This document shows positions 11,759-47,644 of a DNA stretch of 64,000 bases, piece by piece. Position numbers and translations under genes: made by a program. Source of the DNA: a virus (Duplodnaviria; Caudoviricetes); the IMG/VR virus record IMGVR_UViG_3300017560_000009, positions 16,421 through 80,420 of that record. One strand, given 5' to 3'. The notes under the pieces are model-generated. The model did no database searches, had not been told where the DNA came from, and saw nothing but the letters and a program-made list of their open reading frames with translations. How positions within the stretch are numbered: the stretch's first letter is position 1; each line of letters opens with the position of its first letter.

Positions 11759-12467
11759 ATCTTTCGTGGATCCCGCCCTCGTGTTCCAGGAGAACGAGGA
11801 AGAAGCCAAGAAGTGGTCCTTGACGATTCGTGTCCAGGCCACTCCGACTGGCTTCATCATGTCATCATCGGAATACTCGCTCTACTGGCAATTTGACTAC
11901 ACGAAGCTGGCGCACGGTGATGACATGATGTACATCGTGCAAGACCGTGGCCAGCAAGTGAAGTACATCTGGAAGTCCGAGTTCGCCAACTCCAAGGACG
12001 GGCTGGCTGCTGCGCTCCAGCGCAACAACATCGACTCCTTCTCACCGCTGGCCGTGATCGCTATCGGCCGCAGTACCAGCGACTGGGCGGCGCTCTTCAT
12101 GACGAACACGACCCAGACCCTGGGCGAGTTCGTGAAGCTGGACTCCAAGTACGAGCGCATGCGCAGCGACCATATCTTGATGGACATGGCCCCGTCGATG
12201 GCTCCCATGATCCAGGCCTATGACGACAAGATGGCGCTGCTGCGCAAGATCCGCACCAACGATTCCATCGCGGCGCTGGAGTCCCAGGTGGATCTGCTGA
12301 CGACCTGGGTGGCCGCGCTGATCCCGGAGGAATTCCGAGACCAGTTGCTGGAGGTCATAGCTTCAAGGAATAAAGATACCAAAGTGGTTTTTGATGATAT
12401 GCTTGCGTTCAAACAGCGCCTGCGTACTGCGGTGGGCGATTACCAACGCACCAAGAACCCGTCATGA
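11745..12467 (+). CDS. Hypothetical protein between the Cys-rich fibre and the radical SAM gene
   Basis: 240-aa ORF overlapping both neighbours (14-nt overlap and ATGA overlap). Confidence 0.75.
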   Translation: MLLHKSFVDPALVFQENEEEAKKWSLTIRVQATPTGFIMSSSEYSLYWQFDYTKLAHGDDMMYIVQDRGQQVKYIWKSEFANSKDGLAAALQRNNIDSFSPLAVIAIGRSTSDWAALFMTNTTQTLGEFVKLDSKYERMRSDHILMDMAPSMAPMIQAYDDKMALLRKIRTNDSIAALESQVDLLTTWVAALIPEEFRDQLLEVIASRNKDTKVVFDDMLAFKQRLRTAVGDYQRTKNPS

Positions 12468-13822
12468 CCACCTTTGTTCTCAAGACGGTCGATGCCAACG
12501 GCGTCGGCCGTGATTTTTTGTACAACAACATGGCGAGCGTGCTGCGCGATTACGCGACCAGCAACAAGCTCCTGCCGGGTGTGACGCAAGAGAAGGTCAC
12601 GCCCACTAAGCCCGTCATGCTGACCTGGGGTAAGAGCCGCGAGGTCCGCGTGCTGAAGATCCAGCTGGGCTTGTCCTGCAACTACTCCTGCGAATACTGC
12701 CTCCAGCGCTTCGTGCCTTTCGAGCAAGACACGAGCGCCCAGGACGTGGAAGCCTTCTTGGCTAGTCTGGAAGCCAACGTGGTGTTGGCCCCCGATGCCA
12801 AGATCCAGTTCTGGGGCGGCGAACCCCTGGTCTACTGGAAGACCATGTTCCCCCTGGCGCGTGCGCTGCGCGCCCGCTACCCCGAGGTCGAATTCTCGGT
12901 CATCACCAATGGTTCGCTCATGGACCCGGAGAAGGCGCTGTTCCTGTTGGAGCTGGGCTTCACGGTCTCCATCTCGCACGATGGCCCTGGCCAAGCTGTG
13001 CGTGGTGAAGACCCCTTCGACAACCCGAAGACCAAGCAGGCGATCTTGATGCTCTACAACCGCCTGCGTCCCCTCGACCGGATCTCGTTCAACGCGATGA
13101 TCCACAAGAACAACCAGAGCCGCGCAGCGGTGCAGAAGTTCTTCCAGGAGCTGACCGGCGACGAGGACGTGCCGATAGGGGAGGGCAGCTTCATCGACGC
13201 CTACGATGAAGGCGGCATGATGCACACCGCCATGACCGATCAAGAGCACATCGACTACCGCAGACTGGCCTACGATGAGATCTCCAACGGCCAAGCGTTG
13301 AACTTCGGCACGATCACGCACAAGATCCGCGACTTCTTCGAGACACTGGATACGGGCCGAAGCGCCTACCACGTCTGGCAGAAGTGCGGCATGGACAAGG
13401 ACGACCGCATCGCCGTCACGCTCAAGGGCGATGTGCTGACCTGCCAGAACGTCTCGACCACTTCGACCGCAGCCAATGGTGCGCCCCACCATGCTGGCAA
13501 CATCGAGAAGATGGAAGAAGTGAAGATCGAGACCAGCACGCACTGGCTCTCGCGGCCCAACTGCCGGTCTTGTCCGGTTTTGCAGTTGTGCCGTGGCTCG
13601 TGCATGTACCTGCAAGGCCCGCTGTGGGAGGCCAGCTGTGCAGCCGCCTACAGCGACAACGTGGTCCTACTGGCGGTGGCTATCAAGGAGCTGACTGGCC
13701 ACCAGCTGGTGTCTATCGAACCCCTGGAAGACTCGCTGCCTGAAGTGCGGCGCAACGTCTTCGCAGACCCAACTACCAAGAACCCGGCTCGGAAAGTCAT
13801 TCCGATCACCCTGGAGAAGTAA
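12464..13822 (+). CDS. Radical SAM enzyme with C-terminal SPASM domain
   Basis: CNYSCEYC (CxxxCxxC), FWGGEPL, ITNG, ISHDG. SPASM cysteines KCGM...LTCQ...CRSCPVLQLCRGSC...SC. Confidence 0.93.
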   Translation: MTTFVLKTVDANGVGRDFLYNNMASVLRDYATSNKLLPGVTQEKVTPTKPVMLTWGKSREVRVLKIQLGLSCNYSCEYCLQRFVPFEQDTSAQDVEAFLASLEANVVLAPDAKIQFWGGEPLVYWKTMFPLARALRARYPEVEFSVITNGSLMDPEKALFLLELGFTVSISHDGPGQAVRGEDPFDNPKTKQAILMLYNRLRPLDRISFNAMIHKNNQSRAAVQKFFQELTGDEDVPIGEGSFIDAYDEGGMMHTAMTDQEHIDYRRLAYDEISNGQALNFGTITHKIRDFFETLDTGRSAYHVWQKCGMDKDDRIAVTLKGDVLTCQNVSTTSTAANGAPHHAGNIEKMEEVKIETSTHWLSRPNCRSCPVLQLCRGSCMYLQGPLWEASCAAAYSDNVVLLAVAIKELTGHQLVSIEPLEDSLPEVRRNVFADPTTKNPARKVIPITLEK

Positions 13823-22715: not shown

Positions 22716-23339
22716 CTACAGCGCCAGCACTTCGGCATAGACTCGATTCATCGCCGCACGTAGGGCGTCTTGCTCGTCCTTGTTGTTGATGATCACATGG
22801 TCGAACAACTCGTCTGCCAACGGGATTTCCGACTGGTGTGTGATGTCGGGTTTAGGTGCCCAAGGTGCGAAGATCTTCACGAAGGTCGTGTCGAAGTCCC
22901 GCTCAAGCATCTCGTACTCGGTGGCGAACCGCAAGTCGTCCACAAGGATGACATGGCCAGGGCTTCGCCGCCAATGTTGCTCGATCTTCATCTTGGCCAG
23001 ATGAACCCACAGGTTGGGGTGGATGATGTTGCGGCCCCACTCGGTTCCCAGCGTTTGCTGGAGACGACGCGGCGTGACGCCGAACAACTCCTGGATCGGC
23101 AGCGACTTCATCATGGGATCTTCCATCGACTTCACGGCCATGTCTGGCGCGTCACCCATGTAGATCAAGAGCGTGGCCAGCATGTTCTTGATCGGCGCGG
23201 CGAACTTCACCACGTCCAGGCCGTGCGCCGACACCAGATGCTTGGTCGAAGTGGTCTTGCCGTGGGATGCGGCACCGTGGATGGCGATGACTTTGGGCCT
23301 GCCAGCCTTTGGTAGCAATCTTTTGGTTGAGTCAGTCAT
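22716..23339 (-). CDS. Deoxynucleoside monophosphate kinase
   Basis: IAIHGAASHGKTT P-loop, KFAAPIK, PRRLQQTLGTEWGR, VDDLRFATE, HQSE. Start at MTDS overlaps the ThyX stop. Confidence 0.88.
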   Translation of the reverse strand: MTDSTKRLLPKAGRPKVIAIHGAASHGKTTSTKHLVSAHGLDVVKFAAPIKNMLATLLIYMGDAPDMAVKSMEDPMMKSLPIQELFGVTPRRLQQTLGTEWGRNIIHPNLWVHLAKMKIEQHWRRSPGHVILVDDLRFATEYEMLERDFDTTFVKIFAPWAPKPDITHQSEIPLADELFDHVIINNKDEQDALRAAMNRVYAEVLAL

Positions 23340-24576
23340 TGCTGGACCCTCCAGAATCGCCGCCAGCGCCCGATTCGGAGCTGGGTAAGGGGTCAGTGTG
23401 GGTAGCACCAGAAAACGCTTCACGGGGCTTCTCCTGGCCTTGTTCCACGGCGATGGCGAAAGCCAGCGCCGTGCCGTCATCCAGAGGGTACTGGTAGCCG
23501 GGTTTTCGGTTCTGGCGCGCCGTGAATTCCAGGCCGGAAGTCAAGCCACCATGACCTCTTGACTTTTCCGTCTCCATTCGGGAGAAGCTTGTCTTCGTCG
23601 GCAGCTCGGCCGTCCCCAGCTCGCGCACCACACGCTCGTTCATCCAGCTGCGCACCTCGGCGGCGCGGGCGTTGCGGATGGCCCAGTCCTCTCCCGTCCA
23701 CTTGCGCTTCAGGATGCCGACTTGCCGGCCTTCGTTGCGGTCGCGCATCTCGGCCTCGGCTTCAACCTGATAGCGGTACTGCCGCCATCCTTGGACGTTG
23801 CCGTACTGCTTCTCCATGCCTTCCATCGGCCGCAGCTGGTGCTCGGTCGGCGAAGCGTGGACAGGACGAGATCCCACCAGCAGGTCATGACGGGAGATCT
23901 CTTTCTCGATGGCAGCGTTGCCGTCGAACGGGGCCACGCTCACGCGAGCGCAGCGTGCGGCCGAGACCTTGAGCTGGGTGTCCAGCGGCAGCTCCTTGCG
24001 CTCTTGCCGGCTGATGTACGGCAAGTGCCACTCGTCGTAGCCCAAGGGCATGGGCGTCGAGAGTTCGATGGCCGTCATGATCTCGATGGCCAGATCTCGG
24101 ATAGTCGGATCGGCGTCGGCGTGGCAGCGCAGGACCGCGTAGGCGTGCCAGGACTTCTCGGAAGCCGTGATCAGCGTGTTCATGTACTGATACGGCTCGG
24201 TGACGCGGTTGGCCACTTGCTTGTGCGCGCCCAGCTTCATCATGCCCCACGACATGACGGCAGCGAACTTAGCAGCCATCGACCACAGCGTGCGCACACC
24301 GAAGAGACGCCAGCCCGTCAGCTCCGCGCCGGCCTGCATGCCAGCCTTGTTGCTTCCCCATTCGACCGGCATGGCCGGGTCGTTGAAGATCTGGGCCAGC
24401 ATCTTCTTGACAGGGATCGCACGCGAGGATCCAGAGTTGCGGTTCTGGTTGCGGTGCGTGAGCTGTTCAGCATGGACGATGCGCGGGTAGCGCAGCTGAA
24501 GCGTGATGACCCGCTTGCCAGCCGGGGAGATCGAATCTTCGATCACCTTGGCTGTGATGGTTGGTTTTAGTTTCAT
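23332..24576 (-). CDS. thyX: Flavin-dependent thymidylate synthase (ThyX-like) with a C-terminal extension
   Basis: THRNQNRNSGSSRAIP (RHRx7S-type signature), HKQVANRVTEPY, SAARCARVS, HASPTEHQ. ATG 24576 with AGAGGA RBS. Confidence 0.85.
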   Translation of the reverse strand: MKLKPTITAKVIEDSISPAGKRVITLQLRYPRIVHAEQLTHRNQNRNSGSSRAIPVKKMLAQIFNDPAMPVEWGSNKAGMQAGAELTGWRLFGVRTLWSMAAKFAAVMSWGMMKLGAHKQVANRVTEPYQYMNTLITASEKSWHAYAVLRCHADADPTIRDLAIEIMTAIELSTPMPLGYDEWHLPYISRQERKELPLDTQLKVSAARCARVSVAPFDGNAAIEKEISRHDLLVGSRPVHASPTEHQLRPMEGMEKQYGNVQGWRQYRYQVEAEAEMRDRNEGRQVGILKRKWTGEDWAIRNARAAEVRSWMNERVVRELGTAELPTKTSFSRMETEKSRGHGGLTSGLEFTARQNRKPGYQYPLDDGTALAFAIAVEQGQEKPREAFSGATHTDPLPSSESGAGGDSGGSSND

Positions 24577-24633
24577 ATGTCCTCTGTTGAAGAACCCGCT
24601 GCCGCCCCTGGCAGCGGGTGGCATACCGAAGGA

Positions 24634-32087: not shown

Positions 32088-32333
32088 TCACTTCCCCTCG
32101 ACCAGACGTTCGAGGTCTTGCGCGAGCATCGGCAGCTCACGCTCGCAGTGGCGGGCGTAGGCACGCAGCGCGGGGCCGGCGTACTTGTCGTTGTCGATGT
32201 CGATCACGAAGTAACGCGCACCTTCGCGGTCGCCACCCGGTTGGTCGCGCCCGTCATTGCGGGTCACGGTGAACTTCTCGTACAAGCCCTCGGGCTGCAC
32301 GTCGTTGGGGTTGTAGGGTGTGTCCATCTTCAA
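32088..32333 (-). CDS. Conserved-looking phage hypothetical protein
   Basis: GLYEKFTVTR.DG.D.PGG...ARYFVID...D.YA..AL.AYA pattern. Confidence 0.7.
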   Translation of the reverse strand: MKMDTPYNPNDVQPEGLYEKFTVTRNDGRDQPGGDREGARYFVIDIDNDKYAGPALRAYARHCERELPMLAQDLERLVEGK

Positions 32334-32965
32334 TCCTTGAGGTAGTGAGTCTGCGGGGCCATCGACTGGCCCATGGGGGCCAGCTTGTTGTACATCTGCA
32401 TGAACCGCTTACGCGATTCATCGCGGTTCCACACGCAGTCCAGGTAGACCTCCAGTGGGAAGTCCAGTCTGGCCAGCGTGAGGTGGTTGATACCGGCGTC
32501 TTCCAGGCAGGCCCAGAGGTCGCCGTTCTGAAGCAGAACATGCTTCTCGATGGCCAAGGCCACGAGATCCGCGTAGCGGATACGCGGGTCGTGCGTCGGA
32601 TCGAAACGGAACCAGCGGGCCATGTGGCCATGCAGCTCGTTCTCGATCCTGCGGTAGTCCGGCAGCAGGCGCTTGAGTGGCGAGGTGGCGTCTCCCATCA
32701 GCGATTCTGTCGCATCATGGAAGAGGCCCATGTACCAGAGCTGCGGCTGGCTCGGGTTCAGTTCCATCAGCAGCTGGGCAACCAGCACGCTGTGCTGTGC
32801 GACGTTGTAGGTCACATAAGGGAGCTGGCCGCAGTAGCGCGCCGTCGAAGACAGTCCGCTCGCCACGTCGTACACGCTCATGTGGCTGTTCGCTCCGATG
32901 TTGGTCCAGTCGAAGTAGCCACCGGAGGCCAGCGACACGTCATCTTTATGCGGGGTTGGCTTCAT
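32330..32965 (-). CDS. HD-domain phosphohydrolase (YfbR/5'-deoxynucleotidase-like)
   Basis: RYCGQ...YNVAQHSVLV, LFHDATESLMGD..SPLK, YADLVALAIEK. Confidence 0.88.
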   Translation of the reverse strand: MKPTPHKDDVSLASGGYFDWTNIGANSHMSVYDVASGLSSTARYCGQLPYVTYNVAQHSVLVAQLLMELNPSQPQLWYMGLFHDATESLMGDATSPLKRLLPDYRRIENELHGHMARWFRFDPTHDPRIRYADLVALAIEKHVLLQNGDLWACLEDAGINHLTLARLDFPLEVYLDCVWNRDESRKRFMQMYNKLAPMGQSMAPQTHYLKD

Positions 32966-33617
32966 CTTCGGTCTCCTTGTTGGCGCGGTCGAGCTTGTGC
33001 TGAGCGACCATCAGCTCCCACTCTTCCTTCTTCACACGCCGGCAACCTTCCAGGCTGTCGGGATCATAGGTAGCGCACGGTCCCGTGACCTTGAAGCCTT
33101 TGTCTTCCTGCTCCTTGACATAGGCCCGGATGTCAGGCGCCCACATGGCATAAGGACCGTCCTTGCCCAAGTACAGGAAGCCGACTTCATGCAGCGGAGG
33201 CCAGCCGATGTGGCGGAAACCTTCTTCCGATTCCTTGCCGTCCTCGATCTTGACGAAGGACATGGTGAGCGGGATCTTGTAGGCGTCCACCAGCTTGCTC
33301 GGTTGCGTTTCGATGCAAGGCTGGTTCTTGAAACGCTCCGCCCAGTGCGTGCCTTGCTTCGGGTGGCAGGTCTTGTTGCGACCCTTCGGCTTGGTGAAGT
33401 CCGGGTGGTGGTGGCCGCGTTCGAACTGCACGCCCAGCAAGGTGCCTTTGTCGATGTGACGGAAGGCTCCTTCCACCTTGGCTTCGTCGCTGATTTCCTT
33501 GATCAGCGCAGCGCGAGCGCCGTCCGTGGCGATCACGTCACGGATGTGGGCTTGCACCAGTTCGAGGGCGAGACCCCCTTCGATGATGTAGTAGAGAGAG
33601 GGAATGTTGGGGTTCAT
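32946..33617 (-). CDS. Hypothetical protein
   Basis: ATGA-coupled to polA; 223 aa. Confidence 0.7.
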   Translation of the reverse strand: MNPNIPSLYYIIEGGLALELVQAHIRDVIATDGARAALIKEISDEAKVEGAFRHIDKGTLLGVQFERGHHHPDFTKPKGRNKTCHPKQGTHWAERFKNQPCIETQPSKLVDAYKIPLTMSFVKIEDGKESEEGFRHIGWPPLHEVGFLYLGKDGPYAMWAPDIRAYVKEQEDKGFKVTGPCATYDPDSLEGCRRVKKEEWELMVAQHKLDRANKETEDEANPA

Positions 33618-36340
33618 GCGGCTTTCCTTTCTTGTTTGGGGCCGTCCAGGATGTAGTCCAGGATGGCTTGCCGTTCTTCGTCGTTGGCAGCGTTGCCCCA
33701 CGAGCTTTCAGCCACGCAGGGGACGCCCTTCTGGATTTCCATCAGTTCGATCTGGCCGTTCGGTGCTTTGTCCAGGCTCCACGGCTGCAACGTCTTACCG
33801 ATGGCCAGCGAAGAGTCCAGCTTCAGGTTGTTGATGAGGCCAGCGCCTTCGATCATGACAGCGTATAGATCCTTCATGAAGGCCAGGGCTTGCGAACGCG
33901 GCACGGAGTAGACCAGTTCGTCATGGATCAGCAGGAAGAAGCGGGCGCGGTATCCCTTCTCAGCGATCACTTCCTTCATGCGCTTGATCTTGCGCTTGGC
34001 CAGCGCCGCACACAGACCTTGCACCATGGAGTTCACCGACTGGTTGCCGGCGCGGCGGTTGATCTTCTTGATGACCAGCTCGCCGAAGTTGGTGATGGCT
34101 TCGACACCGTAGTGCTGGAACTTCTGGCGCATGTGGGCCATCCATTCGTAGGTCGATTCGAAGCGATCACGACGATGGTGGTCAGGCAGTTCGACGTAGC
34201 CGTTGTCACGCGAGAAGTCGATGACACCAAGACGCCATGCTTCGCCTTGAGGGAACGTGTTGCGGTACTTCTCGGTCTGCTCCCACATCTCGTCCGATGT
34301 CCAACCCATTTCCTTGGCCGTGGTGCCGAGCGCGCCGGAGTACCAGTAGCCGAAGTTGGACACCTTGCCGACCTTGGTTCGCAACTCCTTCTTCTTCGGG
34401 CTGATGTCGTACTCTTCCTTGCTCATCCCGGTCATACCGAGTACGGCACGAGAGTGCAGATCCTTGTGCGGGCGCTGGCCATAAGCGTCGAAGAAGCCCG
34501 CATCGCCGGAGTATTCCCCGATGATCACCAGCTCAACCGCCGACCAGTCCGCCGAGATCAGCACATGCTCTTCACCCTCAGCGTCGTCCTTGTCAGCTTC
34601 GAAGAAGCCGCGCACGTACTGGGATTCCCCGAACTTGGCCAGCTGCTGGCCGTTGGGGGTCGAGCACGCCGAGCGCCGGCTGGCCAGCAAGCTGGACAAG
34701 ACCGGGTACACGCGGTTGGTATCAGGGTCGATGAGGTTCAGATACGGCGTGATGTACAGCTTCACGCGCTGGGAGATCCCGGCCATCTTGGCGTAGACAT
34801 CGAACACCCCCAGGCCGGCCCGGAAACGGGCATAGGCGCTCTCCAATTCCTCGGGGAGTACCCAGGTAGCCACGTCCTCCAAAACCTCGCCCTGCGGGTC
34901 CACAGGCACGCCCTTTTCGGGGTGGATGAAACCGGCCAGCTCGCCCTCGGCGTAGCGCTTGATCCAGCGGCGGCGCAACTCGGTGCGGCAGTCGCCATCC
35001 GATTGGGTCTTGCCGTTGACCAGCATGAAGCTGCCGCGCATCAGGTCGTACAGAATGACGCGCATCGGCATGTAGTGGACGAGGTTCGGGCCAGTGCTTT
35101 CACGCTCACCATTTTCCAGCGCCCAGGCGGCTGAGACCGGTGAGCGAACCTGTTTGACCTGCAAGTAGTCGTCCTGGTGGTCCATGCTGTTGGCCCAGGC
35201 CACGATCTGGGAGCGGTACTTGGCGACGTTGCCGCTGCCTTTGGTCTCGTCCCAATACCACTTGTCGTACTTGGCCAGCTTGTCGTGCATGTCGGCAGGG
35301 AAGGGGAGCAAGCCCTTAACTGCGGCCTTCAACTCCCGCAGCGATTGCGCTTCCAACGAGCGCTCGACCGAACGGCGCGCATACACCGCGTCGGTGTTCA
35401 TCTCGATGCCGTGTTGCCAGACTTCGGAGGCCGCTTTCACGAAAGGCATTTCCTGTTCCAGATACGTCTGGAAGACAGGCGGGTTGGTCTGCATGATGTA
35501 GGCCAGCACCGTATGGAACAGCTTCAGGCACCAGTAGGCGTCGTCCACGCCGTAGCTGGCCACTTCGTCGCCAGTCAACTGGCCCATGTGGACCTTCTTG
35601 CCCATGGTCTGTTCAAACGTGGCCATGTCGTAGCCGAACCAGGACTTCACCGCACGCTTCAGGTCGTAGCCGATCTTGATGGAAGCGACGTAGCCGTTCC
35701 AGCTGTGGTCTGCGTCCGACTCCTTGGCGATGACCTTGTACAGCAGCTCTTCCTGTTCGTTGCTCATCTCCATGCCCGGTTGGTAGCCGGCGAAGACGCG
35801 CTGCACGATGGGCAGAAGCTTCTCGATCCCGCCCAGACCTGGGCCATAGAAGCGATCCCGGAAGTAGGTGTCAGGCGAGTAGGCCGACACGCACAACTGC
35901 ATGGAGCACAGCACCTTGTCGCCCAGCTCGAAGCCCAGCGACTTGGCCATCATGGTCCATTCATAGTTGGCGTTGTGGATGACCCAGTACGCATCGGGGC
36001 GCTTGGCCTCCAGCATCTGCTTGGCCACTTCCCACGGCACGCGGTTCTCCACGTCCGCGTGAGCGAGATTGATGTAGTAGCCGCGCTCGCCTTTGTCCGG
36101 GTAGATCGAAAACCCGGTCACGGTGGTGCGGTTCACATCGAACACCAGACGCGCCGCCGCCGACTTGCGGCCTTCATCGTCCGCCTTCATGAAGCGGTTC
36201 AGGCCATCGTGACGGTCGATGTCCTGGGTTTCAATGTCGAAGCCGATCATGCCGGCCTTCGACACCTCGTCCACGATGATCGGAAGATACTGGTCGATGT
36301 TGCGAGCATCGACCAGTATCTTGTTCTGCAATTCCAACAT
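33614..36340 (-). CDS. polA: DNA polymerase, family A, with 3'-5' exonuclease domain
   Basis: Exo motifs GFDIET, IHNANYE, YGVDDA. Pol motif A ISADWSAVEL, motif B RTKVGKVSNFGYWY, motif C LIHDEL. Confidence 0.96.
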   Translation of the reverse strand: MLELQNKILVDARNIDQYLPIIVDEVSKAGMIGFDIETQDIDRHDGLNRFMKADDEGRKSAAARLVFDVNRTTVTGFSIYPDKGERGYYINLAHADVENRVPWEVAKQMLEAKRPDAYWVIHNANYEWTMMAKSLGFELGDKVLCSMQLCVSAYSPDTYFRDRFYGPGLGGIEKLLPIVQRVFAGYQPGMEMSNEQEELLYKVIAKESDADHSWNGYVASIKIGYDLKRAVKSWFGYDMATFEQTMGKKVHMGQLTGDEVASYGVDDAYWCLKLFHTVLAYIMQTNPPVFQTYLEQEMPFVKAASEVWQHGIEMNTDAVYARRSVERSLEAQSLRELKAAVKGLLPFPADMHDKLAKYDKWYWDETKGSGNVAKYRSQIVAWANSMDHQDDYLQVKQVRSPVSAAWALENGERESTGPNLVHYMPMRVILYDLMRGSFMLVNGKTQSDGDCRTELRRRWIKRYAEGELAGFIHPEKGVPVDPQGEVLEDVATWVLPEELESAYARFRAGLGVFDVYAKMAGISQRVKLYITPYLNLIDPDTNRVYPVLSSLLASRRSACSTPNGQQLAKFGESQYVRGFFEADKDDAEGEEHVLISADWSAVELVIIGEYSGDAGFFDAYGQRPHKDLHSRAVLGMTGMSKEEYDISPKKKELRTKVGKVSNFGYWYSGALGTTAKEMGWTSDEMWEQTEKYRNTFPQGEAWRLGVIDFSRDNGYVELPDHHRRDRFESTYEWMAHMRQKFQHYGVEAITNFGELVIKKINRRAGNQSVNSMVQGLCAALAKRKIKRMKEVIAEKGYRARFFLLIHDELVYSVPRSQALAFMKDLYAVMIEGAGLINNLKLDSSLAIGKTLQPWSLDKAPNGQIELMEIQKGVPCVAESSWGNAANDEERQAILDYILDGPKQERKAA

Positions 36341-36349
36341 GACAGCTCC

Positions 36350-36751
36350 TTAGAACTCGCGCCGGCCCACAACCTCGCCGGTGAAGTCGTGAATCAACAG
36401 TTCAGTCGGGTAGTTCTTTCCGTCAACCATCAGCACCTTCGGGGCGATCAGGTTTTCGAATACCGTCTGGCCCCAGCAGTTGATGACGACTTGATCGCCT
36501 TTGCTGAAGAAGTGAGCCGGGGGACCGTGCAGTGTGATCTCGCCTTCAACGTCGGACTCGATCACATAGGTTTCCCAGTGCTTGCCGTTGGCCATGCTGT
36601 TGACATGGACCATCTCGAACGGCTCGATGCCCACCAGCGCCATTAGGCGGCGGCAGATGGCGATGCTTCCCCGGTAATTCAGGTTGGCGTCCGTCACCGT
36701 GGCGCGGTGGATCTTGGCGCGCAGGAAGGTGCGCGTGGTCTGGTGGGCCAT
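36350..36751 (-). CDS. panD: Aspartate 1-decarboxylase (PanD)-like pyruvoyl proenzyme with a divergent active site
   Basis: AKIHRATVT, YRG|SIAI self-cleavage site, NGK..ETYVI, GD.VVI. The E. coli R54 and N72 positions are His here. Confidence 0.85.
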   Translation of the reverse strand: MAHQTTRTFLRAKIHRATVTDANLNYRGSIAICRRLMALVGIEPFEMVHVNSMANGKHWETYVIESDVEGEITLHGPPAHFFSKGDQVVINCWGQTVFENLIAPKVLMVDGKNYPTELLIHDFTGEVVGRREF

Positions 36752-37197
36752 TACACGCGCCCCTTGCGCACGTCGCCGACCATCTCGTAGCGACCCATGG
36801 CCAGCGGCACGATGGGGCGGTTTTCGACGGTGATGACGATGTTGGCTTCGCGGGCTTCGGCCAGCAGCAGCTCCAGCTTGGCCTGGATGCGCGCCAGGGC
36901 TTCGTCCTGGTCCACGGGCGGTGCAGTCTTCTTGGCCACGTACTGGAAGACTTCTTCACGGGTCACTACCACTTCCATCTTGTGCTCGCCGGAGGCCTTC
37001 CACTTGGCCTTGGCCGGTTTCTTGGTCGGCACGAACACATCCCCAGTCAGCTTCAGCGCATGCGTGCCGATGCGTTCGACCAGATAGAAGTTGAAGTTCT
37101 CCAGGCCTATCGTGTCCCGGTTCAACTTCTCCCAGGCCGCGAGCATATAGTCCTGGGGTTCCATGCCAAAGAGGTCTTTGTATTCAGGCGTCTTCAT
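36751..37197 (-). CDS. Hypothetical protein
   Basis: Start MKTPEY with AAGGA RBS; stop overlaps the panD start. Confidence 0.65.
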   Translation of the reverse strand: MKTPEYKDLFGMEPQDYMLAAWEKLNRDTIGLENFNFYLVERIGTHALKLTGDVFVPTKKPAKAKWKASGEHKMEVVVTREEVFQYVAKKTAPPVDQDEALARIQAKLELLLAEAREANIVITVENRPIVPLAMGRYEMVGDVRKGRV

Positions 37198-37198
37198 G

Positions 37199-37414
37199 TC
37201 AGTTTCCTTGTTCGAGGATGGCAACTTGCAACGCGAGGCCAGCGGTCGAGACGGCCAGCACGCCGATGGCACCGTGTTCCTGCACGATGGCAACGATCTT
37301 GCCGACCAGCTCTTCGCCGAGCTTGCGTTGATCTTCGGGGAGGGTCTTGATGAGGTCTTGGGCTTGCATCAAGTCAAGGCGAGCAGCGCGGAGTTCTTCG
37401 GGGGAGGTCTTCAC
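37199..37414 (-). CDS. Hypothetical protein
   Basis: GTG start overlapping the exonuclease stop (GTGA). Confidence 0.55.
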   Translation of the reverse strand: MKTSPEELRAARLDLMQAQDLIKTLPEDQRKLGEELVGKIVAIVQEHGAIGVLAVSTAGLALQVAILEQGN

Positions 37415-38193
37415 AGCATGTATCCTTTGAGGATGTTTTCGATTTGCCCGATGTTGGGAATACCTGCCTTCATGTACTTCTTCAGCTCCGCGTCGGGCAC
37501 GTCGCGGAATCCGATGATGTCCCACATCTTTCGCAGGACGGGTTCGTTCTCTTTGATCCACTTCAGAGAAGCCGGTTTCAATGCCAAAGCTTCGGCAAAC
37601 ATCTCGAAGTCGAGCGGTGTTGAATTTACGAAGTAGTCGAGCCATAGCTTCTTATCCGTGTTGCTCCAGGCCACGTCGCCGAACTTGTAGACACCGGAGA
37701 TCGAGTCGGAAGCATCCCCCACCAGTGTCTTGCGCAAGCGCACTTCGGTCCAGTCCGTGGCTTCATAGACCACATTGTCGCGCCCATGGATGGTCACGTT
37801 CGTGCCATCGCATAGCGCGAGAAAGTCACCGTCGTTGGAGTAGATCTTGAATCGCTGGCCAGTGCCAGCACGGGAGCGCACGAGCGCTGCAATCACATCA
37901 TCCGCCTCATGGTAGGGGACTTCAACCTGGATGCAGCGGGTGTGGAGCAAGACCTGCTTGAACAGATCTTGAGTCTTGTAGAACTCGTCGGTGGCGCGAA
38001 CGCGCTTGACCTTGTAGTTGGGGTAGATATCGCGGCGATACTTCTTGGAGTGATAGCCGTCCCAGACGTAGATGACCGGATCACCGACCGGGTACATCAT
38101 CTGGATATCAGCCAGCACGCCTCGCATCATCCCGGTGGCTTCGAAGGTCCGGCGAAACGTGTTGTTGCCGTCGATCAGGTGAATCGTGGTCAT
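37411..38193 (-). CDS. 5'-3' exonuclease / flap endonuclease (T5 D15 / T4 RNase H-like)
   Basis: LIDGNN, VWDG, RRDIYPNYK, EADDVIA, SNDGD, LVGDASDSISG. Confidence 0.92.
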   Translation of the reverse strand: MTTIHLIDGNNTFRRTFEATGMMRGVLADIQMMYPVGDPVIYVWDGYHSKKYRRDIYPNYKVKRVRATDEFYKTQDLFKQVLLHTRCIQVEVPYHEADDVIAALVRSRAGTGQRFKIYSNDGDFLALCDGTNVTIHGRDNVVYEATDWTEVRLRKTLVGDASDSISGVYKFGDVAWSNTDKKLWLDYFVNSTPLDFEMFAEALALKPASLKWIKENEPVLRKMWDIIGFRDVPDAELKKYMKAGIPNIGQIENILKGYML

Positions 38194-38206
38194 GGTCATC
38201 CTCGGG

Positions 38207-38246
38207 AGAAAGAAAAAGGGCGGAAGGTTTTATCCTTCCACCCTTT
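38207..38246 (-). terminator. Rho-independent terminator just upstream of the exonuclease gene
   Basis: Minus strand GGGTGGAAGG-ATAAAA-CCTTCCGCCC followed by TTTTTCTTTCT. Confidence 0.75.
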
Positions 38247-45817: not shown

Positions 45818-46213
45818 TCAGTGTCCTTTGTTTGCTTTCTCGTCGTAGTAGGCGCGAAGCGCCGCCTGAAGAGCGTGTTTAATCACCCGAAGATACGGAT
45901 GACTTTGATCGGAATGCAAGACTTCGTTTGCTGCACGGACCATGGCCGCTGTGACCTGGATCTCTTCTTCTTCGGAAGGAGGCGGCGGCTCTTCATACTT
46001 CGGCTCGGGCAACGTCTCGGTCAAGACGCCGTTTTTGAAGAAGTTGACTTCACCCCAGCGGTATTGCCGCAGCCATGCCATCATGGCCCCAACACGTCGC
46101 CAGTCTGTGCCGGCGTATTCGAGATGGCCACCTTGGATCAGGTGATATTCGGCTGGACCTGATGGTGTGTTCATCATGTCCAGCATCGTGTACTTCTTAG
46201 GCTTCGTCGTCAT
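45818..46213 (-). CDS. Hypothetical protein
   Basis: Start MTTKPK with GGGAG RBS. Confidence 0.55.
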   Translation of the reverse strand: MTTKPKKYTMLDMMNTPSGPAEYHLIQGGHLEYAGTDWRRVGAMMAWLRQYRWGEVNFFKNGVLTETLPEPKYEEPPPPSEEEEIQVTAAMVRAANEVLHSDQSHPYLRVIKHALQAALRAYYDEKANKGH

Positions 46214-47153
46214 CGTCAGCTCCCTGTTCAAGCGCATAATGCATGCCAGCCTGCGGCACGGCGCTTTGACCATCGTAGCTTGGCGTTCCATCTTGAACGT
46301 AGACGGTGGCAGCTTCCAGCTGCTGACGACCTTCGCGGATCTCCATCTCGCGTTCGACCCAGAGATCCGGGTTGATCTCGTCCACGATGTGACGACGCAC
46401 AAGATTGGAGAGGTAGCGCGGCTCCAGCGCGTCCAGCTCCCACGACGATTCGCCGAACTGTTCGGCGTAGGCTTCGAACCGGGCATCCGTCGTCTTGGCC
46501 GGGTTCTCGGGAGGATTCTGTTCTTCGACCTGGGCCATGTTGAGCGCGAGACGGCGCAGCTCGAAACGGTAGCCGGCGAAGATCTCCAGGCGCTCGGTGA
46601 GGTCGCGGGTCATGTCGATGCCCGAGGGGTCGTGGTCGCCCAGGTGCAGGATCAACGAGCGCTGACGGCGCAACGTGGTCTCGGCGAAGTCGCGCAGCAC
46701 GGTGGAGGATGGGTAGCCACGGGCCGCGAGGATCGGCACGCCGAAGCGATGGCACACATCCGTGAGCACGCCCACCAGTGCTTCCTTCTCGATGATCACG
46801 AACACGCGGCGCGGCTGGTTGGCCCACATATCCATGTAGAACTGCTGGGCGCAAGCCTTGACCATGGAGGCGGGTGTGGACCACGTACCACGCCGCTGGA
46901 ATTCGCGGGTCCGGTCTTCGAACCAGTCCCAGTCCAACAGGCCGGCCATCTTGGCTTCATTGATCAAGTCGGCCACGCGCTTATAGCTGCGCATCGTGTT
47001 CTCGACGTGGCCACGGGCCACCAGCTGGTAGTAGGCCTGACGAGTCGTGAGGATCAGACCCATCGTTTCGTACTCGCGGCCGATGTCGTGGATGATGTTG
47101 ATCAATGCCAGCGACTCGGCACGGAACTTCTTGTCTTTATAGGCCTGCTTCAT
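46197..47153 (-). CDS. Spo11/topoisomerase VI-A-like (winged helix + TOPRIM) protein
   Basis: LTTRQAYYQL, IIEKEA, RGYPS, LGDHDPSG (DxD), ELDAL. Confidence 0.8.
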   Translation of the reverse strand: MKQAYKDKKFRAESLALINIIHDIGREYETMGLILTTRQAYYQLVARGHVENTMRSYKRVADLINEAKMAGLLDWDWFEDRTREFQRRGTWSTPASMVKACAQQFYMDMWANQPRRVFVIIEKEALVGVLTDVCHRFGVPILAARGYPSSTVLRDFAETTLRRQRSLILHLGDHDPSGIDMTRDLTERLEIFAGYRFELRRLALNMAQVEEQNPPENPAKTTDARFEAYAEQFGESSWELDALEPRYLSNLVRRHIVDEINPDLWVEREMEIREGRQQLEAATVYVQDGTPSYDGQSAVPQAGMHYALEQGADDDDEA

Positions 47154-47644
47154 TTCAGCTTCTCCATGATGACTTCGATAGCCTGCATGCAGCGCGGCAC
47201 GTCGAACATTGCGAAATGGCATTCAGCGGCTGAGATGCCCATGGCCTTGCCAAGCCATGCGTAGGCCTCGCTGCGGTCCTTGAACGGTGCGCGGGTATGT
47301 GAGGGCCAGTGCAGCTTGTTGAAGTGGCTCTTGGCCACTTTGCGGGCTTCCCGGATCTCGAACGTGGCCAACGTGCCGAGGGGAATGCCAGTGAACGGGT
47401 GGAGACCGACATACGCACCGCAGTGCTCGTTGCGGCACAGGAATACCCAGGGCCAGTCCCCGTACTCCATGCCGTTGTAGATCTCGGAATTCTTGACGCA
47501 CTCGACCTTTCCGCCGCAGTGCGGGCAGACGGTCGGCGCAGGCAGAGGGTCTTTCACCCTCGCTACAGCCTTGCGGCTGGGATTCCATGGGGTCTTGCCG
47601 TGCTGCGGTTCAAGCAGACGTTCCATGTCGAACTTGGCCATCAT
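47150..47644 (-). CDS. DUF3268-like zinc-finger protein
   Basis: CPHCG...C...CGAYVGLH...PLGTLA...R.ARK...F..L...AY.WL...MGI....CHFAMFD. Confidence 0.8.
   Translation of the reverse strand: MMAKFDMERLLEPQHGKTPWNPSRKAVARVKDPLPAPTVCPHCGGKVECVKNSEIYNGMEYGDWPWVFLCRNEHCGAYVGLHPFTGIPLGTLATFEIREARKVAKSHFNKLHWPSHTRAPFKDRSEAYAWLGKAMGISAAECHFAMFDVPRCMQAIEVIMEKLK

What the first reader, a model, noticed from the sequence alone, without database searches (positions are those of the whole stretch)
36350..36751. PanD-like pyruvoyl enzyme with a re-wired substrate pocket, directly upstream of DNA polymerase
Seen (manual alignment to E. coli PanD): K9, H11, Y22, the G24-S25 cleavage site, T57 and Y58 are conserved (here K13, H15, Y26, G28-S29, T61, Y62). 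R54 becomes His (H58, codon 36578-80), N72 becomes His, A74/A75 become Pro/Pro and D29 becomes Cys. Established: R54 salt-bridges the aspartate beta-carboxylate and sets specificity. The gene lies 9 nt before polA rather than among metabolic genes. Inference: a self-processing decarboxylase for a non-aspartate substrate, possibly making an amine for DNA/nucleotide modification or for the rSAM/Hint chemistry, rather than a CoA auxiliary gene.
Basis: partly seen in the sequence, partly recalled or inferred. Interest (0 to 1): 0.72.

Follow-up and report, generated by a model that had tools for sequence, protein, structure and literature searches.

The report
Phage PanD-like decarboxylase, aspartate pocket rewired
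An Achromobacter phage carries an intact, selected gene for a PanD-type self-cleaving decarboxylase that keeps the catalytic machinery but lacks the groups that hold aspartate's side chain, so it probably makes an amine other than beta-alanine; its position before DNA polymerase looks incidental.

Summary
The gene is on the minus strand at 36350-36751 and encodes 133 aa. It is a true PF02261 protein (E 7.5e-31) with a confident PanD fold. K9, H11, Y22, G24-S25, T57 and Y58 are kept. R54 is His and A74/A75 are Pro-Pro.

I found further clade-specific changes: position 47 is Asn, F55 is Trp and position 79 is Phe. Together these define an undescribed 'HWETY' subfamily, found on diverse phage contigs and in many bacterial phyla.

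In M. tuberculosis PanD the distal carboxylate is held by Arg54 and the backbone NH of Ala74 and Ala75. Here the Arg54 guanidinium and both NH groups are absent, so aspartate is an unlikely substrate. The protein also scores below NCBI's panD equivalog cut-off.

The proposed links to polA, DNA modification and the rSAM/Hint module are not supported:
- Phage JWF lacks the gene but keeps polA and the rSAM enzyme.
- About 20 other phage loci share no neighbour with it.

In bacteria, some copies sit beside RimK-like ATP-grasp ligases, a PLP fold-type-I enzyme or a CysK/SbnA-like enzyme. None of these occurs in this phage.

Verdict: a stand-alone accessory pyruvoyl decarboxylase with an unknown substrate, probably not aspartate. 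It is a new variant of a known kind and of moderate interest. The scan also noted this same stretch in an overlapping window.

The parts
36350..36751 (-). PanD-like gene, 133 codons plus TAA (protein P0001)
   Evidence: ORF list and translation. PF02261 E 7.5e-31. AlphaFold2 model with pLDDT 95.2. Best Foldseek matches are PanD structures, rmsd 1.3-1.7 A over about 109-120 aligned columns.
36665..36670 (-). Codons for G28-S29, the predicted self-cleavage site; Ser29 would become the pyruvoyl group
   Evidence: Aligned to G24-S25 of E. coli and M. tuberculosis PanD. Invariant in all relatives aligned. Codons read.
36566..36580 (-). Codons for H58-W59-E60-T61-Y62, the 'HWETY' motif, aligned to R54-F55-x-T57-Y58
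   Evidence: H, W, E and T are invariant in the 31-sequence clade alignment and Y is at least 90%. The motif is present in essentially all 24 phage and 52 MAG copies.
36518..36529 (-). Codons for H75-G76-P77-P78, aligned to N72-G73-A74-A75; the two prolines remove the backbone NH groups
   Evidence: PMC6969166 states that the NH of Ala74 and Ala75, together with Arg54, hold the ligand carboxylate in M. tuberculosis PanD.
36599..36607 (-). Codons for H49-V50-N51; N51 replaces the hydrophobic residue at position 47 (Trp47 in E. coli) near the active site
   Evidence: Asn in 97% of the HWE clade against Val/Leu/Tyr in ordinary PanDs. Trp47 is named as lying close to the active site in PMC3975893.
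36506..36508 (-). Codon for F82 (position 79), Phe in every member of the HWE clade
   Evidence: Phe 100% against Val/Gly/Ala in ordinary PanDs; codon read.
36341..36349 (-). 9-nt spacer between the PanD-like stop and the polA start; TAAGGAGCTGTCATG carries a Shine-Dalgarno sequence for polA
   Evidence: Sequence read directly.
33614..36340 (-). Family A DNA polymerase, the next gene downstream in the same unit
   Evidence: PF00476 E 8.5e-31; 81-82% amino-acid identity to JWF and L033 polA.
36751..37197 (-). Upstream gene of 148 aa, homologue of JWF gp057; its TAA overlaps the PanD-like ATG (TAATG)
   Evidence: no Pfam or PHROG match.
37411..38199 (-). 5'-3' exonuclease (FEN/RNase H-like), first gene of the transcription unit
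   Evidence: PF02739 E 2.9e-18.
38215..38246 (-). Strong terminator-like hairpin (13 pairs followed by a T run) just upstream of the unit. No terminator-like site on this strand between it and the scan's lower limit at 33000, below the polA stop
   Evidence: a consensus scan only.

Best explanation
The gene encodes a self-processing, pyruvoyl-dependent amino-acid alpha-decarboxylase of the PanD fold (a double-psi beta-barrel). The proenzyme is predicted to cleave between Gly28 and Ser29. This would give a beta chain of about 3 kDa and an alpha chain whose N-terminal serine becomes the pyruvoyl cofactor. Thr61 (T57) would assist cleavage. The pyruvoyl group would form a Schiff base with the alpha-amino group of an L-amino acid. 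Lys13 (K9) would pair with the alpha-carboxylate and Tyr62 (Y58) would reprotonate after loss of CO2. These steps are inferred from conserved residues, not shown. The protein belongs to a distinct and so far undescribed 'HWETY' subfamily. In this subfamily the site that holds aspartate's beta-carboxylate in PanD has been replaced: the Arg54 guanidinium and the backbone NH of residues 74 and 75 give way to His, Pro-Pro, Asn47, Trp55 and Phe79. The substrate is therefore most likely not aspartate. It is more likely an amino acid whose side chain is neutral, cationic or amide-linked. My best guess, held weakly, is a small beta-substituted alanine such as cysteine, serine or diaminopropionate, or a side-chain-conjugated aspartate. 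The product would then be the corresponding primary amine. In this phage the gene stands alone as an accessory metabolic gene. It is translationally coupled into the replication operon, so it would be made while DNA is replicated, and it would act on a host metabolite. Its place before polA is an inheritance of the JWF-like lineage and not a sign of joint function.
For: Family and fold: PF02261 E 7.5e-31; model pLDDT 95.2; best Foldseek matches are all PanD, rmsd 1.3-1.7 A. Catalytic and cleavage residues are conserved. [quoted passage not shown] A processed N72A mutant structure, 3tm7, exists. Loss of the aspartate site: in M. tuberculosis PanD the ligand carboxylate is bound by Arg54 and the NH of Ala74 and Ala75, and R54A is inactive (PMC6969166). 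Arg54, Ala74 and Ala75 are listed as strictly conserved in aspartate decarboxylases (PMC3314653). Here they are His, Pro and Pro. The new signature is under selection. H54, W55, N47, P75 and F79 are essentially invariant in 24 phage and 52 MAG copies that are otherwise only about 40-70% identical. The W55 superclade separates from ordinary PanDs with SH-aLRT support of 99. dN/dS is 0.29 against phage 2-1 and 0.26 against L033. The score against the TIGR00223 panD equivalog is 83.9 bits, below the cut-off of 106. Not a CoA-operon gene: the subfamily co-occurs with an ordinary PanD in G005 and G010. It also occurs in a Saccharimonadia genome where no PanC was found. Bacterial copies neighbour RimK-like ATP-grasp ligases, a PLP fold-type-I enzyme and a CysK/SbnA-like beta-replacement enzyme. 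This fits an amine-forming step in a small-molecule or surface-modification pathway. Operon structure: TAATG overlap with the upstream gene, its own AAGGGG Shine-Dalgarno-like sequence, a 9-nt spacer to polA, and a terminator only upstream of the FEN gene.
Against: No experiment exists, and no model of the tetramer or docking could be run here, because the active site lies between subunits. His54 together with Asn47 could in principle still bind a carboxylate, so aspartate or glutamate is not excluded. In 8 of 10 bacterial genomes checked the HWE copy is the only PF02261 gene, and 3 of 5 tested have PanC. In those genomes it might therefore serve as the housekeeping enzyme. Pro74 alone occurs in 17% of ordinary PanDs. 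The substrate class I favour rests on a minority of bacterial contexts. The F2-F3 pair usually occurs without the PanD-like gene: only 4 of 80 loci have it. In addition, the phage copies lack all of these partners.
Confidence: 0.55

Rival explanations
1. It is still an L-aspartate 1-decarboxylase. In this reading the phage carries an auxiliary gene that raises beta-alanine, and so pantothenate and CoA, during infection. His58 and Asn51 would take over binding of the beta-carboxylate.
For: It is annotated panD in phage 2-1. All catalytic residues are kept. The HWE copy is the only PF02261 gene in 8 of 10 bacterial genomes checked, and PanC is present in three of those. Related S54 and L54 proteins pass the TIGR00223 cut-off.
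Against: R54A is inactive in M. tuberculosis PanD, and Arg54, Ala74 and Ala75 are reported as strictly conserved in aspartate decarboxylases. The window protein scores below the equivalog cut-off. The subfamily co-occurs with an ordinary PanD in two genomes and occurs where no PanC was found. It was not seen beside panB or panC: panB/panC did not appear among the conserved neighbour families of the 53 bacterial loci, although individual neighbours were not all annotated. In a sample of 61 genomes of one order, 24 have no PF02261 gene at all, so other routes to beta-alanine exist.
Confidence: 0.2
2. It decarboxylates a longer acidic amino acid, for example L-glutamate to GABA. The shorter His54 and the small Asn47 would make room for one more methylene group and bind the distal carboxylate.
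For: Arg to His and a bulky hydrophobic residue to Asn both shorten side chains at the far end of the pocket, and both can donate hydrogen bonds (inference).
Against: Pro74, Pro75, Trp55 and Phe79 make the site more hydrophobic, not more anion-friendly. Nothing in the gene contexts points to glutamate or GABA. This reading is purely geometric and no model of the assembled active site was available.
Confidence: 0.1
3. It supplies an amine for DNA or nucleotide hypermodification, working with the replication genes.
For: It is co-transcribed and translationally coupled with polA. The phage also has a ThyX-like protein, a dNMP kinase and an HD 5'-nucleotidase. One relative, L004, sits between ribonucleotide reductase and ThyX.
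Against: JWF has the same replication and nucleotide genes but lacks this gene. No neighbour is shared across the other phage loci. No kinase or transferase of the known thymidine hypermodification pathways was seen next to any copy; I searched for conserved neighbours, not for those families directly. The bacterial partners are unrelated to DNA.
Confidence: 0.07
4. It is a decaying or non-catalytic remnant, a 'moron' without enzymatic function.
For: It is absent from JWF, so it is dispensable for the lineage. It evolves faster than polA: 58-70% against 82% amino-acid identity.
Against: The frame is intact in three lineages. dN/dS is 0.26-0.29 against the window, and 0.52 between 2-1 and L033. 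All cleavage and catalytic residues are invariant. The fold prediction is confident.
Confidence: 0.05

Closest known systems
L-aspartate alpha-decarboxylase PanD (E. coli 1ppy/1aw8, M. tuberculosis 2c45/6oz8, H. pylori 1uhe)
   Same: Same Pfam family and same fold, rmsd 1.3-1.7 A. Same Gly-Ser self-cleavage site. Same Lys9, His11, Tyr22, Thr57 and Tyr58. About 30-36% identity.
   Different: Arg54 is His; Ala74-Ala75 are Pro-Pro, so there are no backbone NH groups; position 47 is Asn; Phe55 is Trp; position 79 is Phe; the 65-66 loop is two residues shorter; a C-terminal beta-hairpin (115-132) is predicted. It scores below the TIGR00223 equivalog cut-off. It lies in a phage replication operon, not with panB/panC.
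'panD' of Achromobacter phage 2-1 (OQ974181, WKV22060.1) and the unnamed orthologue in about-80-kb JWF-like phage contigs (P0003; L033/L034)
   Same: These are orthologues, 70% and 58% identical, in the same position immediately before polA and with the same HWETY / H-G-P-P signature.
   Different: None in kind. The public annotation 'aspartate 1-decarboxylase' is by homology only. The sister phage JWF lacks the gene.
Bacterial HWETY-type PanD-like genes (Planctomycetota, Alpha-, Beta- and Gammaproteobacteria, Saccharibacteria, Elusimicrobia and others)
   Same: Same signature at positions 45, 47, 54-58, 75 and 79, and the same superclade.
   Different: Most have Cys74-Pro75, Asp29 and Ile86 and form a separate branch. 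Many sit directly beside a TPR-ATP-grasp protein, a PLP fold-type-I protein, an ATPgrasp_ST protein or a CysK/SbnA-like enzyme. The phage genome has none of these.
Rhodococcus phage Jace gp87 'aspartate decarboxylase'
   Same: A phage-borne PF02261 protein.
   Different: It is another subtype: Arg54 is kept, with Trp55 and N-G-G-G at 72-75. It lies beside a P-loop/GNAT protein and a piece of CoA-transferase III. It is 32% identical to the window protein.
CrpG, the beta-methylaspartate alpha-decarboxylase of cryptophycin biosynthesis (recalled from memory, not checked here)
   Same: It is a precedent for a PanD homologue that works on a substrate other than aspartate.
   Different: Its substrate still carries the beta-carboxylate. 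I did not retrieve its sequence, so its residues at positions 54, 74 and 75 were not compared.

Membership tests
PanD / Asp_decarbox superfamily (PF02261, pyruvoyl-dependent, double-psi beta-barrel) | Sequence match above Pfam's gathering score | tested here: met
   106.8 bits against a cut-off of 25, E 7.5e-31, covering profile positions 3-112 of 115.
PanD / Asp_decarbox superfamily (PF02261, pyruvoyl-dependent, double-psi beta-barrel) | PanD fold | tested here: met
   Model pLDDT 95.2. The top 30 Foldseek matches are PanD structures, with TM up to 0.92 and rmsd 1.3-1.7 A.
PanD / Asp_decarbox superfamily (PF02261, pyruvoyl-dependent, double-psi beta-barrel) | Gly-Ser cleavage site and Thr57, needed to form the pyruvoyl group | tested here: met
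   G28-S29 and T61 are aligned and invariant. Thr57 is the only residue found to be required for activation (PMC3975893). This is sequence evidence only.
PanD / Asp_decarbox superfamily (PF02261, pyruvoyl-dependent, double-psi beta-barrel) | Actual self-cleavage and a pyruvoyl group in the protein | not testable with these tools
   Needs expression and mass spectrometry.
L-aspartate 1-decarboxylase proper (EC 4.1.1.11; NCBIfam TIGR00223 equivalog) | Score above the equivalog cut-off | tested here: not met
   83.9 bits against a cut-off of 106.
L-aspartate 1-decarboxylase proper (EC 4.1.1.11; NCBIfam TIGR00223 equivalog) | Arg54, which binds the beta-carboxylate and sets specificity | tested here: not met
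   His58 is at this position. Arg is 100% conserved in the 186 ordinary sequences aligned. R54A is inactive (PMC6969166).
L-aspartate 1-decarboxylase proper (EC 4.1.1.11; NCBIfam TIGR00223 equivalog) | Ala74-Ala75, whose backbone NH groups bind the distal carboxylate | tested here: not met
   Pro77-Pro78 are at these positions. Among ordinary PanDs position 75 is Ala 91%, Thr 4%, Gly 2%, and Pro was seen only once. The role of these residues comes from PMC6969166.
L-aspartate 1-decarboxylase proper (EC 4.1.1.11; NCBIfam TIGR00223 equivalog) | Lys9, His11, Tyr22 and Tyr58 of the catalytic site | tested here: met
   K13, H15, Y26 and Y62.
L-aspartate 1-decarboxylase proper (EC 4.1.1.11; NCBIfam TIGR00223 equivalog) | Genomic or metabolic link to pantothenate synthesis (panB, panC) | tested here: not met
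   The gene is in a phage replication operon. PF02261 is the only family of that pathway I searched for in the 80-kb phage genome, and it gave one hit. Bacterial relatives stand apart from any pan operon; panB/panC were not among their conserved neighbours. One host genome had no PanC hit.
L-aspartate 1-decarboxylase proper (EC 4.1.1.11; NCBIfam TIGR00223 equivalog) | Decarboxylates L-aspartate to beta-alanine | not testable with these tools
   Needs an enzyme assay or complementation of a panD mutant.
Phage DNA hypermodification pathways (amino-acid-derived base modifications) | Conserved linkage of the decarboxylase to nucleotide- or DNA-modifying genes across homologues | tested here: not met
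   No shared neighbour family in 24 phage loci other than the gene itself. JWF lacks it but keeps polA, ThyX-like and rSAM genes.
Phage DNA hypermodification pathways (amino-acid-derived base modifications) | Modified bases in virion DNA that depend on the gene | not testable with these tools
   Needs nucleoside LC-MS of phage DNA.

The most novel reading that the evidence does not exclude
HWETY-type PanD-like enzymes are a new class of pyruvoyl decarboxylase. They would act on beta-substituted alanines or on aspartate already amide-linked through its side chain, giving 2-substituted ethylamines or beta-alanyl amides. In bacteria, RimK-like ATP-grasp ligases and a PLP enzyme would then build these into a metabolite or a cell-surface polymer that is not yet known. 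Phages of many kinds would have captured the decarboxylase alone to redirect a host amino-acid pool during replication, for example to make a polyamine-like counter-ion, or to drain or alter a host metabolite.
Probability: 0.2. Interest if true: 0.7.

Novelty: new variant of a known kind. Interest (0 to 1): 0.5.

Why it matters
PanD is a textbook enzyme and a drug target: pyrazinoic acid binds the same Arg54/Ala74/Ala75 site. Databases name every family member 'aspartate 1-decarboxylase'. This work shows a coherent subfamily, present in at least dozens of phage contigs and in many bacterial phyla including CPR bacteria. In it that site is replaced by an equally conserved alternative. If its substrate differs, a whole set of public annotations is wrong, a new amine-forming reaction awaits discovery, and phages would have a new kind of auxiliary metabolic gene. 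The matter is directly testable. Phage 2-1 (with the gene) and JWF (naturally without it) are isolated on Achromobacter xylosoxidans, and the protein is small and predicted to fold well.

Tried and rejected
- Link to the rSAM/Hint genes: rejected. They sit at 10316-13822 on the plus strand, in the tail-fibre module. JWF keeps the rSAM enzyme at 79% identity but lacks the PanD-like gene.
- Functional link to polA: rejected as a general feature. The adjacency holds only in JWF-like phages. Clustering of neighbours in 24 phage loci found nothing shared; the second 'family' was only antisense ORFs over the gene itself.
- Pseudogene: rejected.
- Recent capture of the host's own panD: not supported. 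The best ordinary bacterial relatives are at most about 50% identical, and the window protein sits in a virus-dominated branch.
- PHROGs gave no family for the protein. The ESM Atlas gave only generic PanD clusters.
- Literature: I found no paper in the held library on phage PanD or on PanD relatives lacking Arg54. Absence from that library is not proof of absence.
- Bacterial partner families (F2, F3, F7, F8, F15, F34, F47, F48, F50) were searched for by tblastn in the window, in the other phage loci and in the whole 80-kb phage genome. None was found.
- Whether the HWE type is the housekeeping enzyme in bacteria: inconclusive.
- A profile search of the F2 family against PDB sequences returned only TPR matches, and the F3 profile returned nothing. 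The fold of F3 came from a model instead.
- Pocket geometry could not be measured.
Full report
WHERE THE WINDOW COMES FROM. The window is bases 16421-80420 of an 80,420-base IMG/VR virus record estimated to be 99% complete. It is 83% identical in DNA to Achromobacter phage 2-1 over 94% of a 13-kb test stretch. It is about 80% identical to Achromobacter phage JWF over 72% of that stretch. Genes on the minus strand around the finding form a replication and recombination module:
- SbcCD-like nuclease, an exonuclease and a RecU-like resolvase
- an ATP-dependent ligase and an HD 5'-nucleotidase
- family A DNA polymerase, a 5'-3' exonuclease and a SNF2 helicase

THE OBSERVATION. The ORF at 36350-36751 is real but lies on the minus strand. 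Its 133-aa product matches Pfam Asp_decarbox with E 7.5e-31.
- Kept: K9, H11, Y22, G24-S25, T57 and Y58.
- Changed: R54 to His (codon CAC at 36578-36580), N72 to His, A74-A75 to Pro-Pro, and D29 to Cys.
The polA start codon lies 9 nt after the stop codon. That spacer, TAAGGAGCTGTCATG, carries polA's ribosome-binding site. The gene's own ATG overlaps the stop of the upstream gene as TAATG. A strong terminator-like hairpin lies only upstream of the 5'-3' exonuclease gene. The gene therefore sits inside the replication transcription unit. An AlphaFold2 model is confident (pLDDT 95.2). Its best structural matches are all PanD, with rmsd 1.3-1.7 A.

A DISTINCT SUBFAMILY, NOT A ONE-OFF. I collected 267 relatives from two very large protein libraries. 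Among them, 65 lack Arg54, and 62 of these fall in one group of the tree. A second tree that includes phage and MAG copies separates a 'Trp55' superclade from ordinary PanDs with SH-aLRT support of 99. A column-by-column comparison gives the signature of the window's branch, in E. coli numbering:
- His45, Asn47, His54-Trp55-Glu56-Thr57-Tyr58
- Asn or His at 72, Gly73, Pro or Cys at 74, Pro75, Phe79
- a loop at 65-66 that is two residues shorter
In ordinary PanDs the same positions are hydrophobic at 47, Arg54 (100%), Phe/Leu/Ile at 55, Ala74 (81%; Pro 17%), Ala75 (91%) and Val/Gly/Ala at 79. The new residues are essentially invariant in 24 phage and 52 MAG copies that are otherwise only about 40-70% alike.

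WHY ASPARTATE IS UNLIKELY. The literature is explicit about these residues.
- Arg54 binds the beta-carboxylate of the substrate analogue (PMC3975893). It is credited with setting substrate specificity (PMC3314653).
- Arg54, Ala74 and Ala75 are listed among the strictly conserved residues of aspartate decarboxylases (PMC3314653).
- In the M. tuberculosis PanD-pyrazinoate complex the ligand carboxylate lies where the substrate analogue's distal carboxylate lies. It is held by the Arg54 guanidinium and by the backbone NH groups of Ala74 and Ala75. The R54A enzyme is inactive (PMC6969166).
Proline has no backbone NH. In the window protein the Arg54 guanidinium and both backbone NH donors are therefore absent. 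The protein also falls below NCBI's curated cut-off for the panD equivalog, at 83.9 bits against 106.
Nothing needed for maturation or catalysis is lost. Thr57 is the only residue shown to be required for activation, and Tyr22 and Tyr58 mutants still process. A processed N72A mutant structure exists (3tm7, listed).
This is inference from residues. His54 and Asn47 might still bind a carboxylate, so aspartate or glutamate remains possible.

IS THE GENE ALIVE? Orthologues sit in the same place in phage 2-1, where the gene is annotated panD. They also sit there in about-80-kb phage contigs from two other sources (L033 and L034). dN/dS is 0.29 and 0.26 against the window, similar to the flanking genes. 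JWF has polA directly after the gp057 homologue and lacks the gene. JWF's polA is closer to that of L033 (87%) than the window's is (82%). Loss in JWF is therefore the simpler history; this is an inference.

IS IT TIED TO polA, DNA MODIFICATION OR THE rSAM/Hint GENES? I examined 24 phage loci in all, counting the window and phage 2-1. They came from exact-protein look-ups and from a scan of IMG/VR that gave 18 loci, many from contigs of 100-280 kb. All-against-all clustering of their ORFs found no family shared with the PanD-like gene beyond close relatives. The neighbours vary widely:
- ribonucleotide reductase, ThyX and a 2OG oxygenase in one locus
- SpoVR, PrkA and rIIB in a T4-like locus
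- an aldehyde dehydrogenase in another
The rSAM/Hint genes lie in the tail-fibre module, 23 kb away on the other strand. The rSAM enzyme is kept at 79% identity in JWF, which has no PanD-like gene.

WHAT BACTERIAL RELATIVES ADD. A scan of one genome per prokaryotic species found 53 loci with the same signature (residues checked). They come from Planctomycetota, Alpha-, Beta- and Gammaproteobacteria, Armatimonadota, Saccharibacteria, Taylorbacteria, Elusimicrobia, Omnitrophota and others. Most bacterial copies have Cys74-Pro75 and form their own branch. The window lies in a virus-dominated Pro-Pro branch that also holds ten MAG copies. Several partners recur next to the bacterial copies.
- In 15 loci: a protein (F2) with N-terminal TPR repeats and a C-terminal RimK-like ATP-grasp domain. 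The domain assignment rests on weak CPSase_L_D2 and rimK_fam matches and on conserved motifs in the alignment.
- In 9 loci: a 480-740-aa protein (F3) with no Pfam match. Its model (pLDDT 72) matches PLP fold-type-I enzymes such as the Egt2 C-S lyase, the CsdA/SufS desulfurases and amino-acid decarboxylases. The Atlas gave the same lead.
- In 4 loci: an ATPgrasp_ST protein.
- In 5 loci: a CysK/CBS/cysteate-synthase/SbnA-like beta-replacement enzyme, below every equivalog cut-off.
The link is one-sided. F3 occurs at 575 or more loci. Of the best 80, 75 have F2 beside it but only 4 have the PanD-like gene. The decarboxylase is thus an occasional addition to an ATP-grasp/PLP pair. These contexts fit an amine-forming step that feeds an amide ligase. 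They also hint at beta-substituted alanines or side-chain-linked aspartate as substrates. That is a lead, not a result. None of the partners is present in the window, in the other phage loci or in the whole phage genome.

IS THE SUBFAMILY THE HOUSEKEEPING ENZYME IN BACTERIA? This is unresolved.
- The HWE copy is the only PF02261 gene in 8 of 10 genomes checked. It stands beside an ordinary copy in the other two.
- PanC was found in 3 of 5 genomes, but not in a Saccharimonadia genome or in one proteobacterial MAG.
- In a sample of 61 genomes of the order of one Phycisphaerales host, 37 have one PF02261 gene and 24 have none. The 30 best-scoring copies are all ordinary. One of those 30, G051, is an unpublished genome. 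It adds only one count to that tally, and no other claim rests on it.

MECHANISM PROPOSED.
- Shown: family, fold, intact frame, purifying selection, the conserved alternative signature, operon position, absence of partners, and no conserved linkage in phages.
- Inferred: self-cleavage at Gly28-Ser29 to a pyruvoyl enzyme; Schiff-base decarboxylation with Lys13 and Tyr62 in their PanD roles; a substrate that lacks a distal carboxylate; and action on a host metabolite at the time of replication.
I put 0.55 on this reading, 0.2 on a true aspartate decarboxylase, 0.1 on a longer acidic substrate, 0.07 on DNA modification and 0.05 on a dead gene.

COMPARISON WITH WHAT IS KNOWN, AND NOVELTY. The protein is a member of the PanD superfamily. 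It fails three of the features that define aspartate 1-decarboxylase proper: Arg54, Ala74-Ala75 and the equivalog score. I found no paper in the held library on phage PanD or on PanD relatives without Arg54. PHROGs has no family for it. The only isolated phage in GenBank with this type is phage 2-1. Rhodococcus phage Jace gp87 is a different subtype that keeps Arg54. I rate it a new variant of a known kind, of moderate interest: a clear, widespread and testable case of probable change of function, but with the function itself still unknown.

Noticed in passing
window 23332-24624 (-), 22716-23480 (-), 32330-32965 (-): A 430-aa ThyX-like protein (phrog_85 'thymidylate synthase', E 5.5e-77; only a weak Pfam Thy1 match), a dNMP kinase (PF21448) and an HD-domain YfbR-like 5'-deoxynucleotidase. 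This trio could serve to replace or bias a nucleotide pool. JWF has homologues, so it is independent of the PanD-like gene.
   Followed up: partly
L058, L079, L080, L082, L060 and others (bacterial MAG loci); L127-L206: A widespread bacterial gene pair without a name: a TPR plus RimK-like ATP-grasp protein beside a protein of about 500-740 aa with a predicted PLP fold-type-I structure. There are at least 575 loci, including cultured Methylobacter tundripaludum, Cupriavidus, Undibacterium, Variovorax and Sulfuriferula. 75 of the best 80 loci keep the pair, and a few add the HWETY PanD-like gene.
   Followed up: partly
L067, L077, L078, L083, L084 (Coxiellaceae, Gammaproteobacteria, Omnitrophota MAGs): The HWETY PanD-like gene lies directly after two small unknown genes (about 190-200 aa) and a CysK/CBS/cysteate-synthase/SbnA-like PLP enzyme. 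This suggests a route from a beta-substituted alanine to its amine.
   Followed up: partly
L009, L010 (Bacillaceae chromosomes), protein P0022: A second PanD-type gene (Arg54-Trp55-Lys56, N-G-P-P) stands alone between long non-coding stretches near a 5'-nucleotidase, not in a pan operon. It passes the TIGR00223 cut-off and is named aspartate 1-decarboxylase.
   Followed up: no
L125 (Rhodococcus phage Jace) 1395-3615: gp87 is a PanD-type protein (Arg54, Trp55, N-G-G-G). It lies between a P-loop plus GNAT acetyltransferase protein and a fragment-sized CoA-transferase family III protein. This may be a small CoA-related cassette in an actinophage.
   Followed up: partly
L001 6583-9293 (Achromobacter phage 2-1): polA is annotated in two pieces (2517 and 207 nt). 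Read as one frame it has many stops, so the public record has a frameshift or sequencing error near the 5' end of polA, just after the panD-like gene.
   Followed up: no
proteins P0019, P0031, P0116, P0148, P0149, P0153, P0122: In the sister branch of the Trp55 superclade, position 54 is Leu, Phe, Ser or Pro while position 56 is often Arg or Lys (LWR, FWR, SWR, PWK). The positive charge may have moved two residues along the strand.
   Followed up: no
window 46197-47222 (-) and 47150-47644 (-): A DUF2399/Toprim-like protein (at the Pfam cut-off) is followed by a DUF3268 zinc-finger protein (E 3.5e-34) among the small early genes.
   Followed up: no
window 36350-36415 (residues 114-133 of P0001): The model predicts an extra C-terminal beta-hairpin (strands 115-121 and 127-132) that ordinary PanDs lack. 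This tail is variable across the clade. In E. coli the C-terminus is where the activator PanZ binds (recalled, not checked here).
   Followed up: no
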